Source: Octopus sinensis (lineage: Eukaryota). From it: a stretch of DNA of 64,000 nucleotides. The stretch's first letter is position 1. Every line of letters starts with the position of its first letter. Location: the NCBI RefSeq assembly GCF_006345805.1, contig NC_043003.1, forward strand, positions 107,260,001-107,324,000, given 5' to 3'. Made by a program: the position numbers and the translations under genes. Positions 46,360 through 53,910 of this stretch are shown here, one piece after another. The notes under the pieces were generated by a model. The model was not told the DNA's origin. It did no database searches and saw only the letters and a program-made list of their open reading frames with translations.

Positions 46360-47643
46360 TAGCTTCATGTCCCAATCCATGCGGTCTTTTCCCGTTATAC
46401 TTTTTATCTGTGTAAACATCGAAGTTTACACGGTATCCTGTCTCCAATTCACAAACTTCCCATTCCTTGATCCCCATTTAGTAGGTTTAGCAGGCATGTA
46501 CTGCTAAAAATGTACTCTGCCCTTATAGCCTATCATGGTTTCATCTACACTGAGATTTTTCCCAGGTAAATAAATAGTTTTATAATTATGTACGAGTAAA
46601 TCAATTACAGGACGTACTTTGTGCAGGGGATCGTAGTTTGGGTCGTTTTTGCTGGGGGCATTGGCATAATCAGTTAAATGCAAATACTGAGATATTTTCA
46701 AATACCTTGTCTGTATGGTTCGATCCCGCACTTAATTCAGTCTCCAATCAAATTCACAAAGGTTTGATTGGTATATTATGAGTGCTACAGCATTATTGAC
46801 TTAATTAAATGCAGCTTTTCTAATAAACGCTGTCAGAATTAAATTCAGACAATTTTCTCATTTTGTGAGGTGGCGTACCTGCTCCAATACTTCATTAGAA
46901 AGTTGTCTGTTGGGCTTCGTGGGGCGGGGTTGGATGCTCGAAATATATGGATCGCCATACCTTACATCGGGTCTCCAATAGTTCCACATTCGAGGAAGCT
47001 GTTTAACTCCAAGCATAATTTTAATTGCGAAAAATGCTCTCATTTCTGCAGTATTAGTTGGCTGCCATAGCGGATCGTTTCTTCCTCGGACAGAAATTAA
47101 GTGTTGCGCATATTTGTTCATTTCCTCTGCAACATTTTCAAAAGAACTTTCAGGCAAAAATAAAAATAGATAGTCCAGTGGTTGAGCAACAGGAGGTAAA
47201 TTATGGCGAGGACCAGTGTTTTCTGTAAAATCAGAAATTGTGACTGGTGTCGTAATTTTCGACCATGTTGCCTTGTTTACAATATTGTTTTCATCAGTTT
47301 CGTTATGGAAATCTTCGTCCGACGAGTAATCACTGATATCAATATCAGGTTCATCTGAAGTCAAAATGCTTTTCTTTTCATTGATATCTTCAAAGTCGGA
47401 ATCGATACTTGCTGACGTCATTTCTTTCACAACAAACATATACACATGTGGTCTAAACAATTTCACAGTATTTATGCTTGAATAAAGGCGGGAAAGGCTC
47501 CATCTTGCATTTTCTCAAAGCTACGAGAATTTAATGTGACTTATTTTTTTTTGTGATTTCATAGAGCTGTCTGATACAGCCGGTTTGAACAAGTAAAGGG
47601 GAATTAATTTTGGCCAGTTACGGCCGGTTTGAACACTAAAGGG
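46360..47643 (-). mobile_element. piggyBac transposon fossil (PGBD4-like transposase) in RPL35A intron 2
   Basis: Terminus ccggtttgaacactaaaggg|tgaa (degenerate TTAA) with a subterminal repeat at 47580. Motifs PLDYLFLF, EMRAFFAI, YLHL, KVRPVID, LSVDETMIGYKGR, YMPAKPTKWGIK. Internal stop, 3' truncated and interrupted at 46711-46933. Confidence 0.93.
46727..46854 (+). ncRNA. Box H/ACA snoRNA-like RNA, copy A (RPL35A intron 2)
   Basis: Hairpin gcactta/tgagtgc plus ccaatcaaa/tttgattgg; H box ACAGCA (46787-92) 15 nt below the upper stem. Second hairpin with gcagc/gctgt; ACA (46849-51) 15 nt below it. 128 nt, sense to an RP host gene. Confidence 0.72.
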
Positions 47644-47808: not shown

Positions 47809-47961
47809 ACTCTATGTTAAAGCTGTGTTCACAGGCTACAAACGTGGTTTAAGAAACCAGTATGAGCACACTGCACTCTTGAAGATTGATGGTGTTTATA
47901 AAAGAAATGAAACTAGTTTTTACCTTGGCAAAAAATGTGCTTATGTATACAAGGCAAAGAG
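47809..47961 (+). CDS. RPL35A: 60S ribosomal protein L35a, coding exon 2
   Basis: tttcag|A CTC TAT...; (R)[50 protein letters not shown], classic eL33 sequence; donor gtgagc at 47962. Confidence 0.97.
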
Positions 47962-48224
47962 GTGAGCTTTATCTTTTTTTCTTTTAAAAAACGACAGGTG
48001 GGGGTGTTTATGTAACACTGTATTGGCCCCTACATCGTCGTGGAGGCCCCTTACAAAGTGGTGCTTTCTGCTCATGCATGCCGCTCGGCAACTGTACGAG
48101 TCCACCTGATGTTTGTGGAGCTTGTACTTTTGGTATTCTGCATTCCCTACTCTCCACCCTCAAATTAACGCATTTTAAATATGCTCAGAAGAACTCGCTG
48201 TAAGGTCTCTGTATGGTTCGATCC

Positions 48225-48352
48225 CGCACTTAATTCAGTCTCCAATCAAATTCACAGTGTTTTGATTGGTATATTATGAGTGCTACAGCATTATTGGCTT
48301 AATTAAATGCAGCTTTTCTAATAAACGCTGTTAGAATTAAATTCAGACAATT
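48225..48352 (+). ncRNA. Box H/ACA snoRNA-like RNA, copy B (RPL35A intron 3)
   Basis: Near-identical to copy A; H box ACAGCA 48285-90, ACA 48347-49. Differences are in the apical loop, an A-U to G-U stem swap and one pocket base. Confidence 0.78.
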
Positions 48353-50672
48353 TTCTCATTTTGTGAGGTGGTGTACCTGCTTCAATACTTCATTAGAAAG
48401 TTGTTTGCTGGGCTTCGTGGGGTGGGGTTGGCTGCCCCACAATATAGAAGCTTCAGTGACCTTCATCCTAAAGCGTGACTTTAAGATAATTAACATACGA
48501 CAACTGGTGATTTGGTTTCTAAATCTCTGGTGAGAACCATTGGGTGTGGTTGAGTTCTTAAGGACCTGAATTGCTATCATCATCATTTAATGTCTGTTCT
48601 TCCTGGCACGGGTTGGATGGTTTGAAAGGAACTGTACCAGGCTTCATTTGTCTGTTCTGGTGTGAGTTCTACAGCTGGATGCCCTTCCTAATGCCAACCA
48701 CTTTACAGTGTGTGTGTTGGGTGCTTTTTACATGGCACCATTACCAACATCATCATCAAAGCAAAATCTCTCAACTCGGAAGTGGGTGGCTTTGTATCAG
48801 TTGAGAGATTAAGTGTATAGAGGTGTTGGGACGGGTATCTTGCTGTAGGGTGGATGCATTGATAGACCAGTTAGAAGGGAAGGGACTAGTGAGAGAGATG
48901 GTAGATTGGGAGAGGTAACTCAAGAAGCTGCTGGGTGGTGCAGTGTCTATAAATCTCCGGATTTTTGGAGAAGGTTCAGATTTTGATGAAATGCAGTTAA
49001 TTTTACATGCTGTATCATCATCATCATACATTTACTGCATGAGTTTTTGATGTTCTTTAGGAATCTGTTTTGTCGCTTTCACCTGCCCAGGTGTGTTGTT
49101 GAATATCGAAGCTTGTAGGTGTTTTCACTTACATTTTCAGGATCTCAATCTCCGTCTTGGGTTTCTTGCCTGGAAGTTGCACACTTGGCATCAGGAAAAT
49201 CATTCCAAGATATGCCTTCAGTTCCTCCAGGTGTTTTGTATTGTCCAGCATATATGTGCTTTTATCGTTTACTTGTTGCACCCATCAGGTTACGGTCATG
49301 CTGGTGCACTGTGTTATAGAATTTTTGTTGGTCTCTTGTACAAAGCCACTGTGTTACATTCTCTTTCCATCTACCAAATCCACTCACTCGGTGCACTCTG
49401 TGAGTCAGAATGTGGTTGGGAGACGAGCTTCTTGTCTCACACCCATCCCTGCCCCTATTTCTGCAGAAATGTTTGTTTTTTCCCCCCTCTCTATCCTCAT
49501 GGAAGCATCATCATTAACTATATGGATGCTCCACCCCAAGAAGTCCTGGTATCATTCACACTGAAATACCATTCTAAGTGTTTCCTTGAAAACCAAGCTC
49601 TCTTTCTATAAAAGTGACTGGTTTTGTATTTTGGCACAAGGCCGCCAATTTTATGGACGCTGTTCCTTATCTTGTTGACCATGGCGGAATTTGAACTCAG
49701 ATTGGAGACGGTTAGCATGCCACTAAACGTCCTCACCAGCTTCTGAACCAGCCACATGCAAGATTGAAGGGGAATAAAAAAGAAAGATTTTTGGTAAGCG
49801 GTTCCCATGTCAGCCACATGGTTGAAAGATCAATCGCACAGCATGATAGATGGTTATATATCTTCTATTATGGCATTGGGCCAACCAATAGCTTTGAGGT
49901 TGGGTTTTGATGAGAGGAAAGGAAAGAAGGCTCTCACATGTGTGTGTGTGTCTCTGATCCTGTAGCGTAGTGGTTTCTTAAAAGAGGTCAACTGAATATG
50001 AACCCAGGTCAATTTCTTTGACTAAAAGAAAGATGAAGCGTAGATTCTACAAGCTGGGAGTCTTGTAAAGTTTGGCTGGGCTCACCTGGACCGCCCTTTT
50101 CGTACTGCATTGATATGTGGTTCCTTATTGTAGAGGTCTTAGAGGATTAAGTTGCTGGTGGCAATGGCGCCTGCCTGGCCCTCGTCCCGCACTCCTCAAA
50201 GCCCTAAAACTCCTATACCAGGGCCTCACCACCAGGTCCAGTTTCAGGTCTTTCCCAGGACCCTCCATACCTCAACAGCAAATTACAGCTGCAGCGTATG
50301 CACTATCGAATGCAGTTGCTCTCCCAGTGGGGCATTTGTCAAATCTTCAGGATGGATTTTTGGGCCACAAGCTGAAGTATGACTTTGGCTGCTGGAATGG
50401 ACAGGAATTCACCAGTCCCACTCTCCCCTTGTGAGTGCCACTGAAAGTACTGCAAAGGACTATTTTCTGAGGGACACTTCCACAATCGGTTATAAATATG
50501 CCTGAGACAAACAAATAAATGAAGTATTATGCTGCTCCTTATAGTGTTTACCTGTTCGTCAGCTAATTATGAATTAACCAGATTTCGTTGTCTCTCAATT
50601 GATAACTTGTAATCAAGAGTTCAATTCCACTTTTTGTCTTTGTGTGTCTCTTGTACCCCGAAAGGATTACCA

Positions 50673-50803
50673 TGCACTTAATCAGGCCTACAATCAAAGG
50701 GTCACTGTTTTGGTTGATGGAATAATAAGTGCCACAGAAAATTGGAATTTTTCTATAGTGCAATCATCTAAGTGGTGCCTGTCGCATAAAATTCCAGACA
50801 AAT
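50673..50803 (+). ncRNA. Box H/ACA snoRNA-like RNA, copy C (RPL35A intron 3)
   Basis: gcactta/taagtgc plus caatcaaag/ttttggttg; H box ACAGAA 50734-39; second hairpin tggaatttt/aaaattcca; ACA 50798-800; 131 nt. Confidence 0.78.
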
Positions 50804-53233
50804 TTAAGTGTAAATTTTTTTTTTTATCTCCTTCCATGATTGTTGTAGGTGCAAGGTTTGCCTGTGTGGTGAGTGCAATCACCACCGTTTGACATCTGGT
50901 GTTGGTGTATGTATGTAGCTTAGAAGTTCAGAAAGGCCAACTGATGGAATAGGCATCAGGTTCAAAAACCAGTAATTACAGGGTTTGCTTCGTTCCATTA
51001 AAATTCTGTGTTTGTTCTGATAATTAAATATCAAGCGTCGTTTTACTAAAATGTCAAGAGCAAGAACTCTGGAGCTTTGGAGAAGGTTAAGATTTTGGTG
51101 AAATGCAGTTAATTTGGCATGCTGTATCATCATCATCATCATACATTTACTGCATGAGGTTTTGTTGTTCTTTAGGAATTTGCATTGTCAGTTTCACCTG
51201 CCCAGGTGTGCTGTCGAATATCGAAGCTTGTAGGTGTTTTCACTTACATTTTCAGGATCTCAATCTCTGGCTTGGGTTTCTTGTCTGGAAGCTGCACACC
51301 TGGCATCAAGAGAATCATTCCAAGATATGCCTTCAGTTCCTCCAGGTGTTTTGTATTGTCCAGCATATATGTGCATTTATCATTTACTTGTTGCACCCAT
51401 CAGGTTACGGTCATGCTGGTGCACTGTGTTATGGAATATTTTTTGGTCTCCTGTGCAAATCCACTGTGTTACATTCTCTTTCCATCTACCAAATCCACTC
51501 GCATGGTGCACTGTCAGTCAGAATGTGGAACAATGTGGTTGAGAAACGAGCTTCTTGTCTCAAACCCGTCCCTGCCCCTATTTCTACAGAAATGCTTGTT
51601 TTTTTTTCCCCCTCTCTATACTCATGGAAGCATCATCATCAACTGCCTAGATGCTCCGCCCCCGAGAAGTCCTAGTGTCATTTATACTGAATTGCCATTT
51701 TAAATGTTTCCTTCAAAACCATGCTCTCTTTCTATAAAAGTTACTGGTTTCCGATTTTGGCACAAGGCCGGCAATTTTGGGGAGGTTGGTCCTTGTTTTG
51801 TTGACCATGGCAGAATTTGAGCTCAGAACGAAGAGACATTTAAGATGCCACTAAACGTCCACACCAGCTTCTGAACCAGCCACGCGTAAGATTGAAGGGT
51901 AATAAAAAAGAAAGATTCTTGATAAGAGGTTTCCATGTCAGCCACATGGTTGCAAGATCATTCGCACTGCATGACTGATTGGTTAAATACCATTAGAAAG
52001 GGTATCAGGCTGTAGGAGCTTTACCCAATCAGATTGGCGCTTGGTGCAGTCAAACTGTCCAACCTATGCCAGCATGGGAGGTGGACGATGTAACAGTGGC
52101 CCAGTTAACAAGATCATCATTTAGCATCCGCTTTCCATGCTGGCATGGGTTGGATGACTTTTCTGGAGCTGGTAAGCTGGATAGCTGCACTTGGCTCCAG
52201 TCTGAATTTGGCTTGGTTTCTATGGCTGGATGCCATTAGGTGTCACTATCATGGAAGCATCGTTTTCCAGTTATGTGGTCTTGGGTTCAGTCCCACAGCA
52301 GACCACCTTTTGTTGTAGTCCTCTGTTTAGAAAAACTTTGGCAGTGGATTTCGTAGGTGGAAAGTGAAGTGTTTGTGTGTGTGCAGAGCCTGGTCTTGAG
52401 AGGTTTTTGTTGTACATAAGCAATGTTGTTGTTTGTCTGTGGTGTTCCATGTAAAACATTGTCTGGTCCTTAGAAAATATTGCTTCCGTAAATTCCATCT
52501 CACACATGCAGGTACGGAAAAAGTGGACTTTAGATCGGTTGGGGGTTGGGCTTTGTCAGTTTTCTAATTGATGATATATCTTAGTTGTCATTCAGCACAG
52601 GTGGAGAGTTCGTGTTCAGGGTTCCACGTGCATATACGCTGCACTTTAGGTCAATCCAGCAGTTGGGGAACTGGAACTCTGTTGGGTGTTGCTTCTGGGA
52701 ACAATATTGGCTAAGTTGTCCAGCACTCCTCAAAGCCCTAAAACTCCTATACCAGGGCCTCACCACCAGGTCCAGTTTCAGGTCTTTCCCAGGGCACTCC
52801 ATACCTCAACAGCAGATTACAGCTGCAGCGTCTGCACTATCGGATGCAGTTGCTCTCCCAGTTGGGCATTTGTCAAAACTTCAGACCGGGTTTTTGGGCC
52901 ACAAGCTGAAGTATTACTTTGGCTGCTGGAATGGACAGGAATTCATCAGTCGGAACCAGCCCCCACCCTCCCCTTGTGAGTGCCACTGAAAGTACTGCAA
53001 AGTTATTTAGTAGCAAAGGACCGTTTTCTGGGGAACACTTCCACAGTCGGTTATAAATATGCCTGAGACAAACAAATAAATGAAGTATTACGCTGCTCCT
53101 TATGGTGTTTCCCTGTTCGTCAGCTAATTATAAATTAACCAGATTTCGTTGTCTCTCAATTGATAACTTGTAATCAAGAGTTCAATTCTACTTTTTGTCT
53201 TTGTGTGTCTCTTGTACCCTGAAAGGATTACCA

Positions 53234-53362
53234 TGCACTAGTCACATACTCAATCAAAGGGACACTGTTTTGGTTGATGGGGGGGTAGTGCCACAGAAAA
53301 TTGGAATTTTTCTATAATGCAATCATCAAAGTGGTGCCTGTCGCATAAAATTCCAGACAAAT
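53234..53362 (+). ncRNA. Box H/ACA snoRNA-like RNA, copy D (RPL35A intron 3)
   Basis: gcacta/tagtgc plus tcaatcaaag/ttttggttga; H box ACAGAA 53293-98; same 3' hairpin as C; ACA 53357-59; 129 nt. Confidence 0.78.
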
Positions 53363-53762
53363 TTTAAGTGTAAATGAATTTTTTTTTTTTTTTTTTTTAA
53401 CACCCTTCCATGATTGTTGTGGGTGCACTGTTTGCCTGTGTGGTGAGGACAATCACCACCGTTTGACATCTGGTGTTGGTGTATGTATGTAGCTTAGAAG
53501 TTCAGAAAGGCCAACTGATGGAATAGGCATCAGGTTCAAAAACCAGTAATTACAGGGTTTGCTTCCATTCAATTAAAATTCTGTTTGTGCTGATAATTAA
53601 ATATCAAATGTCGTTTTACTAAAGTGTCAAGAGCAGGAACTCTGGAGCTTCCGGGTGAGTGTCTGGTCAATGCAAATGTGATTCGTTGTTCAGAATGTTC
53701 CTTCTGCAAAGTATAATCTACGAATATGTTTTGTTTATTATTTGTAAATATTTTCATTGTAG

Positions 53763-53910
53763 GAAAACAAGAATTCCAGGCACCAAAACTGCAGGTCACA
53801 TTCGTATAATATGGGGCAAAGTCACCCGTCCCCATGGAAATAGTGGTGCTGTACGTGCAAAATTTAAGAAGAATCTACCTGCTACCGCTATTGGAAGACG
53901 CATCCGAGTT
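53763..53910 (+). CDS. RPL35A: 60S ribosomal protein L35a, coding exon 3
   Basis: tgtag|G AAA...; (R)[49 protein letters not shown]; donor gtaagt at 53911. Confidence 0.97.

What the first reader, a model, noticed from the sequence alone, without database searches (positions are those of the whole stretch)
50673..53362. Guide pocket rewritten between tandem duplicates C and D while flanks and stems are nearly identical
Seen: the about 45 nt upstream differ at one base, the upper stem-loop differs at one loop base, and hairpin 2 differs at only a few bases. Yet both strands of pocket 1 are largely replaced (atcaggccta vs gtcacatact; aataa vs ggggg). The lower stem has lost one pair on both sides in concert (gcactta/taagtgc vs gcacta/tagtgc). 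Inference: divergence concentrated in the two specificity strands, with a compensated stem, suggests selection for a new target or a local templated replacement rather than neutral decay.
Basis: partly seen in the sequence, partly recalled or inferred. Interest (0 to 1): 0.75.

Follow-up and report, generated by a model that had tools for sequence, protein, structure and literature searches.

The report
Fast-changing pocket in duplicated snoRNAs
Two tandem copies of a predicted RNA-modifying guide RNA in a ribosomal-protein intron differ far more in their target-reading pocket than anywhere else, likely because sister copies kept the original ribosomal target and freed this pocket to change.

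Summary
C (50674-50803) and D (53235-53362) are predicted box H/ACA snoRNAs in an RPL35a intron, paralogous to A and B upstream. Pocket 1 differs at 13 of 21 columns against 51 of 876 in the rest of that duplicated segment; contigs of one public run reproduce both copies, G-run included.

The pocket has changed more than once. A stray D-like fragment on another contig carries a third 3' strand, and one other sample has three more changes in D's 5' strand. A and B, equally diverged, have identical pockets that pair 8+3 with 18S U367, a site likely equivalent to yeast/frog 18S pseudouridine 211. C and D keep only remnants of that pairing.

No new target beat shuffled controls in rRNA or five snRNAs, and D's pocket is predicted half closed. 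Even-rate neutral decay is rejected, but retargeting is not shown and templated replacement has one weak hint. Best reading: a redundant, orphaned pocket turning over by multi-base mutations inside stems kept for RNP assembly (0.5); retargeting under selection 0.25. Pocket divergence after cis-duplication is known in vertebrates; the speed and recurrence here are the interesting part. Expression is untested.

The parts
50674..50803 (+). Copy C, predicted box H/ACA snoRNA, 130 nt; H box 50734-50739, ACA 50798-50800
   Evidence: fold and boxes; alignment
50681..50690 (+). C pocket 1, 5' strand; keeps an out-of-register remnant of the 18S pairing (5 of 8 pairs at best)
50717..50726 (+). C pocket 1, 3' strand
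53235..53362 (+). Copy D, predicted box H/ACA snoRNA, 128 nt; H box 53293-53298, ACA 53357-53359
53241..53250 (+). D pocket 1, 5' strand; three other letters at 53241, 53245, 53248 in run X5
53277..53286 (+). D pocket 1, 3' strand with a run of seven G; predicted to pair partly with the 5' strand
46728..46854 (+). Paralogue A, predicted H/ACA snoRNA; pocket 1 pairs 8+3 with 18S U367 at 15 nt from the H box
48226..48352 (+). Paralogue B; pocket 1 identical to A
48955..51077 (+). First unit of the tandem duplication (segments 48955-49860 and 50184-51077)
   Evidence: self-BLAST
51067..53650 (+). Second unit (segments 51067-51989, 87% to unit 1, and 52718-53650, 89%)
47809..47961 (+). Host gene RPL35a coding exon upstream of B, C, D
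   Evidence: Pfam Ribosomal_L35Ae E 8e-21
53763..53910 (+). Host gene RPL35a coding exon downstream of D
   Evidence: Pfam Ribosomal_L35Ae E 1e-17

Best explanation
C and D are tandem copies of a predicted H/ACA guide RNA whose first pocket has likely lost an ancestral 18S rRNA target that sister copies A and B are predicted to keep, and the freed pocket has been rewritten more than once, likely by a few multi-base mutations, while stems and boxes stayed. Steps: (1, shown) an older duplication split A/B from C/D and two later ones, each about 6% diverged, gave A-B and C-D. (2, predicted) A/B pocket 1 guides pseudouridine at 18S U367. (3, inferred) with that job covered, pocket 1 of C/D was released, but its stems and H box were kept because a two-hairpin RNA is needed for RNP assembly and for whatever hairpin 2 does. 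(4, shown) at least three 3' strands and three C/D-type 5' strands exist. (5, inferred) slippage, small indels and other multi-base events, with any change tolerated that leaves the hairpin stable, give the excess; D's G-run half closes the pocket. The excess over the flanks is only partly explained by this, and weak selection or flank conversion may add to it.
For: A/B pocket 1: 0 of 16 differences at 14 of 239 overall; C/D: 13 of 21 at 5.8%. A/B pair 8+3 with 18S U367 at 15 nt from the H box, 0 of 30 shuffled target sets as good in the folded register; the U sits at Rfam SSU model position 210, where yeast has pseudouridine 211 (PMC5699541), also detected in two frogs and zebrafish (PMC6984369 supplement); the equivalence is inferred from position. 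C and D keep 5 of 8 pairs at best and no duplex of 8 bp or more, below the 8-bp minimum (PMC6049503). No new target above controls. Stray fragment G000:C1:170900251-371 differs from D by 5 substitutions plus a 2-nt indel in the 3' strand and by 5 letters in the remaining ~114 columns. Run X5 differs from D at 3 letters of the 5' strand against 16 of 1626 in six other X5 contigs. D pocket predicted partly paired. Two stable hairpins are required (PMC6049503).
Against: A released pocket should change at the flank rate, not five to ten times faster; three comparisons show the excess. The A/B target is not significant in looser scans (10 of 20 shuffled sets as good; 22 and 37 of 40), though it stays the top hit. 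mRNAs, tRNAs, 5S, U3, U11, U4atac, U6atac and mitochondrial rRNA were not scanned. Orphan pockets once thought neutral proved to be real taxon-specific guides in Xenopus (PMC6984369). Pocket 2 of C/D also lacks a significant target (7 of 30). Expression is not shown.
Confidence: 0.5

Rival explanations
1. Retargeting under positive or diversifying selection: C and D pockets were driven to new substrates outside the RNAs scanned (mRNA, repeat transcripts, rRNA variants).
For: Pocket divergence exceeds flanks in C-D, D-fragment and D-X5 comparisons; both strands changed while stems held; duplicated H/ACA RNAs with new targets exist in Xenopus and chicken (PMC6984369; PMC2653536). C has a 7+4 match with one mismatch to 28S U210 (4 of 30 shuffled sets as good).
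Confidence: 0.25
2. C and D are older than their flanks suggest: gene conversion homogenised the flanks while selection kept distinct, old pockets (islands of divergence), with further paralogues in other individuals.
For: Segment 2 is 5.8% diverged, segment 1 about 11%; identical runs of 115 and 71 nt; X5 depth and several contigs differing at 50690 hint at extra copies.
Against: The 26 nt between the two strands, loop included, differ at 1 base, too short for frequent conversion; the stray fragment on another contig shows the same pattern with no neighbour to convert with.
Confidence: 0.12
3. Local templated replacement (polymerase template switch) rewrote the strands.
For: C's 3' strand shares 10 nt with a site about 226 nt downstream; D's 3' end is the reverse complement of 6 nt in C's upstream flank; such events are described for RNA hairpins (PMC8794818, PMC5453318; search listing only).
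Against: 3.3% of intron 14-mers have such a 10-nt neighbour and four strands were tested; other matches are 4-8 nt, at background; strands did not become Watson-Crick complements of each other.
Confidence: 0.1
4. C and D are unexpressed pseudogenes and the cluster is chance.
For: No Rfam match; whole-RNA folding z only -1.6 and -1.2; three copies share one intron; D has G-to-A at the base of upper stem 2.
Against: Boxes, spacing and hairpin-1 stems are kept across all four copies although A/B and C/D are otherwise far apart; cluster p values.
Confidence: 0.03

Closest known systems
Intronic box H/ACA snoRNAs of ribosomal-protein genes, multiplied by cis-duplication (chicken PMC2653536; sponges PMC3412847)
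   Same: Hairpin-H-hairpin-ACA layout, about 130 nt, RP-gene intron, tandem paralogues.
   Different: There paralogues usually keep the guide strands and vary elsewhere; C/D do the reverse. No Rfam family matches.
Xenopus SNORA16-like pug18S-137 and SNORA58-like pug18S-324 (PMC6984369)
   Same: Duplicated H/ACA RNA in the same host gene with a diverged pocket.
   Different: Those have assigned new rRNA targets; C and D have none found, and change is seen at only about 6% flank divergence and between samples.
Guides for 18S pseudouridine 211: yeast snR49, Xenopus pugxt18S-211
   Same: A and B are predicted to address the equivalent U.
   Different: Functional likeness only; no sequence homology shown. 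C and D no longer pair with the site.
SNORD115/116 tandem arrays (PMC4063771)
   Same: Tandem snoRNA copies with fast turnover and reported selection and conversion.
   Different: C/D-box class, dozens of copies; the averages given there stay below the flank rate, whereas this pocket exceeds it.

Membership tests
box H/ACA snoRNA | Hairpin-hinge-hairpin-tail fold of about 130 nt | tested here: met
   C and D fold so in MFE; hairpin 1 z -2.6; A and B misfold as whole RNAs but fold by hairpin
box H/ACA snoRNA | H box ANANNA in the hinge and ACA near the 3' end | tested here: met
   all four copies; the true 3' end is not mapped
box H/ACA snoRNA | Internal-loop pocket about 15 nt from the box | tested here: met
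   A/B 15; C 13-17 by register; D 15-16; D pocket partly self-paired
box H/ACA snoRNA | Sense-strand location in a host intron | tested here: met
   between RPL35a exons; three copies in one intron
box H/ACA snoRNA | Accumulates as a small RNA bound to dyskerin, NOP10, NHP2, GAR1 | not testable with these tools
   no run on record as RNA was listed
rRNA/snRNA pseudouridylation guide (pocket 1 of C, D) | At least 8 bp around a U in rRNA or snRNA, better than chance | tested here: not met
   several RNA classes not scanned
rRNA pseudouridylation guide (pocket 1 of A, B) | At least 8 bp around a U at a known modified site | tested here: inconclusive
   8+3 bp, 0 of 30 controls in the folded register but 22 and 37 of 40 in the loose scan; site modified in yeast, frogs, zebrafish
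any Rfam snoRNA family | Covariance-model match | tested here: not met
   0 at gathering score; 8 chance-level matches to E 10, none an H/ACA family

The most novel reading that the evidence does not exclude
Pocket 1 of the C/D lineage is a hypervariable guide cassette: a fixed H/ACA scaffold whose two specificity strands are repeatedly replaced, within and between closely related animals, under diversifying selection to pseudouridylate fast-changing targets such as repeat-derived RNAs, mRNAs or variant rRNA segments.
Probability: 0.15. Interest if true: 0.8.

Novelty: new member of a known kind. Interest (0 to 1): 0.42.

Why it matters
Whether the fast-varying orphan pockets of H/ACA RNAs are neutral or newly targeted is an open question (PMC6984369, Discussion). 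This locus offers an internal control: two equally old duplicate pairs on one scaffold, one with a frozen pocket and a predicted target, one with a pocket changing several times faster than its introns. It makes the question testable by pseudouridine mapping, guide assays and population sequencing. It also adds an unannotated four-member snoRNA family in a cephalopod (organism inferred, see report).

Tried and rejected
Assembly error: rejected by X1 contigs. Rfam family: none. Further paralogues: none beyond A-D in the window by covariance model (2 further matches at E above 0.7); genome DNA searches found only the one stray fragment; a stem-loop pattern gave 49 strand hits against 13 control, not followed up beyond the known copies. 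Homologues in metagenome contigs: 0. No RNA holder listed. L004 rRNA was left out of the target set as a likely contaminant (AT-rich, unlike L005; no 5.8S or 18S in L004 or the 10 kb upstream). Hairpin 2 of C/D: best matches 28S 3' part U736 (9+3 bp, 7 of 30) and 18S U469 (17 nt spacing), neither significant; the latter lies, by my recalled numbering, two bases from the conserved vertebrate site 296. A-to-I editing copied back to DNA: considered because four of five 3'-strand changes are A/G, dropped because the fragment's strand and the 5' changes do not fit. The 115-nt identical run at 50876-50990 as a second RNA: overlaps a dispersed repeat. Cryptic exon or transposase at 49100-49320: no Pfam support, splice scan inconclusive. 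Genome-wide search for the proposed D target was not run. Earlier findings of the scan: none.

Full report
Setting. The window is G000:C7:107260001-107324000 of a 2.72-Gb genome. From its repeats, size and very long GC-rich rRNA I take it for an octopus; that is recalled and no call names it. The finding lies in the intron 47962-53762 of RPL35a (flanking exons match Pfam Ribosomal_L35Ae). Self-comparison shows a tandem duplication in two segments, 48955-49860 with 51067-51989 (87%) and 50184-51077 with 52718-53650 (89%), and a separate pair 46710-46947 with 48208-48446 (94%).

What C and D are. Each has hairpin, H box, hairpin, ACA, 128-130 nt. The upstream pair holds two more copies, A and B, which align over their whole length and share hairpin-1 stems and both boxes. 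No Rfam family matches. A model built from the four finds no fifth in the window. One fragment lies on contig C1; it lacks the 5' arm and is followed by repeat-like sequence. Expression could not be tested.

The observation. All stated counts check out: 1 of 45 upstream, 1 of 26 in the upper stem-loop, 3 of 65 in hairpin 2, 7 of 10 and 5 of 10 in the pocket strands. The pocket has 13 of 21 differing columns against 51 of 876. The two densest short windows in 1798 columns are the two strands (p 0.002 and 0.057 at 6 nt). Counting indels and the G-run as single events leaves 5-7 events, p 0.006-0.0001 at 5.8% and 0.07-0.006 at 11%. Run X1 reproduces C (0 differences over 191 nt) and D (1 letter, no gap over 189 nt); these are contigs and X1 may be the source sample, but they exclude a consensus error. 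I laid 4 of the 24 listed runs, and the difference table hid 161 rows.

The pocket changed repeatedly. The C1 fragment shares several D-specific letters, differs from D at 5 of about 114 columns outside the pocket, and has a third 3' strand (5 substitutions and a 2-nt indel) with the full lower-stem arm. Run X5 has other letters at 53241, 53245 and 53248 in the only contig laid there, against 16 of 1626 in six other X5 contigs (p 1e-4; 0.006 at 4%; I left out X5's two other listed contigs, which look like paralogue cross-mappings). That contig could be a further paralogue. X1, X3 and X8 show none of those three letters. By contrast A and B differ at 14 of 239 columns and at 0 of 16 in pocket 1. 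The concerted loss of a stem pair is alignment-dependent and needs no special cause.

Targets. I took the genome's own 18S, 5.8S, 28S (two parts around an insertion), U1, U2, U4, U5, U6 and U12, one copy each, 8,514 nt with 1,614 U. In the folded register A/B pocket 1 pairs 8+3 with 18S U367 at 15 nt from the H box, and 0 of 30 shuffled sets do as well; 14 registers were tested in that call. In looser scans it stays on top but is matched by 10 of 20 and by 22 and 37 of 40. Outside support: the U is at Rfam SSU model position 210, and the pairing follows letters where this genome departs from the consensus; yeast 18S pseudouridine 211 is guided by snR49 (PMC5699541, passages) and was detected in two frogs and zebrafish (PMC6984369, supplement row). 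The equivalence is inferred. A's pocket 2 has as top loose-scan hit a 28S site that I recall as the SNORA6 site, not significant (29 of 40). C and D keep at best 5 of 8 pairs of the 5' strand and 2-3 of the 3' strand with U367, under the 8-bp minimum (PMC6049503, passages). Their best new matches are not above controls: C 4 of 30 then 34 of 40; D 12 of 30 then 40 of 40. D's pocket is predicted partly paired, and D's hairpin is slightly more stable than C's (-19.9 versus -17.6 kcal/mol).

Templates. Longest matches of the four strands elsewhere in 12.5 kb are 7-9 nt, the background mode being 8-9. C's 3' strand with its flank has a 10-nt direct repeat about 226 nt downstream, seen for 3.3% of 1158 intron 14-mers. 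Reverse-complement matches nearby are 4-6 nt.

Mechanism. Most likely the ancestral pocket read 18S U367; A and B kept it; the C/D pocket became redundant and decayed separately in each copy by a few multi-base events, while stems and boxes were held because both hairpins are needed (0.5). The rate excess is the weak point: release alone predicts the flank rate. Retargeting under selection (0.25), old paralogues with converted flanks (0.12) and templated replacement (0.10) stay open.

Known context. Cis-duplication with gain or loss of guide function is described in chicken (PMC2653536, passages, table rows and section 13) and sponges (PMC3412847, two passages). Xenopus has duplicated H/ACA RNAs with new targets, and its authors state that variable orphan pockets may be neutral or taxon-specific guides (PMC6984369, passages, first part of the Discussion, supplement rows). 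SNORD115/116 arrays evolve fast, with averages below flank rates (PMC4063771, passages). PMC13736004: abstract only. Template-switch papers: listing only. Searches for this locus or a like case (listings only, 20 of 58 and 20 of 25 rows seen in 31 and 33) showed none; the library lacks most subscription papers.

Verdict. A real and statistically solid pattern in a new, unannotated family of a known RNA class. The cause is undecided, with the orphan reading ahead. Interest 0.42.

Noticed in passing
window 46728-46854 and 48226-48352: Paralogues A and B are predicted guides for 18S U367 (pocket 1) and, more weakly, a conserved 28S site (pocket 2, 17-nt spacing).
   Followed up: partly
L011 3252-3374, minus strand (G000:C1): Stray D-like snoRNA fragment without the 5' arm, with a third 3' pocket strand, followed by repeat-like sequence; a short stretch upstream resembles the C/D upstream flank, suggesting an internal deletion.
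   Followed up: partly
window 46731-46771 versus 9400-9660: Hairpin 1 of A aligns weakly with the window's SINE-like repeat (0 of 200 shuffles for one copy, 1-9 of 200 for three others; C and D do not). Chance or a repeat origin of the hairpin; test was post hoc.
   Followed up: partly
window 47962-53762: Three predicted snoRNAs share one intron; maturation would need hidden exons or cutting, or would give a long RNA capped by B and D.
   Followed up: partly
window 49100-49320 and 51215-51435: Better conserved than the rest of segment 1 (11 of 221 versus 88 of 680), with acceptor-like and donor-like sites; possible cryptic exon, conversion tract or transposon remnant; no Pfam match.
   Followed up: partly
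window 50830-50953 and 53404-53527: Box C-like and box D-like motifs with a short terminal inverted repeat downstream of each copy; overlaps a dispersed repeat; possible C/D-box RNA, untested.
   Followed up: partly
L005 3040-4813: The 28S copy carries an insertion of about 1.8 kb at what I recall as the R2 retrotransposon site; not tested.
   Followed up: no
L004 1501-4813 (G000:C6303): A second, AT-rich and very different eukaryotic 28S on an unplaced contig with no 18S or 5.8S upstream; likely from a parasite or contaminant.
   Followed up: partly
window 50650-51450, run X5: Depths and multiple contigs hint at more than two copies of the unit in that sample; contig depth is not a copy number.
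   Followed up: no
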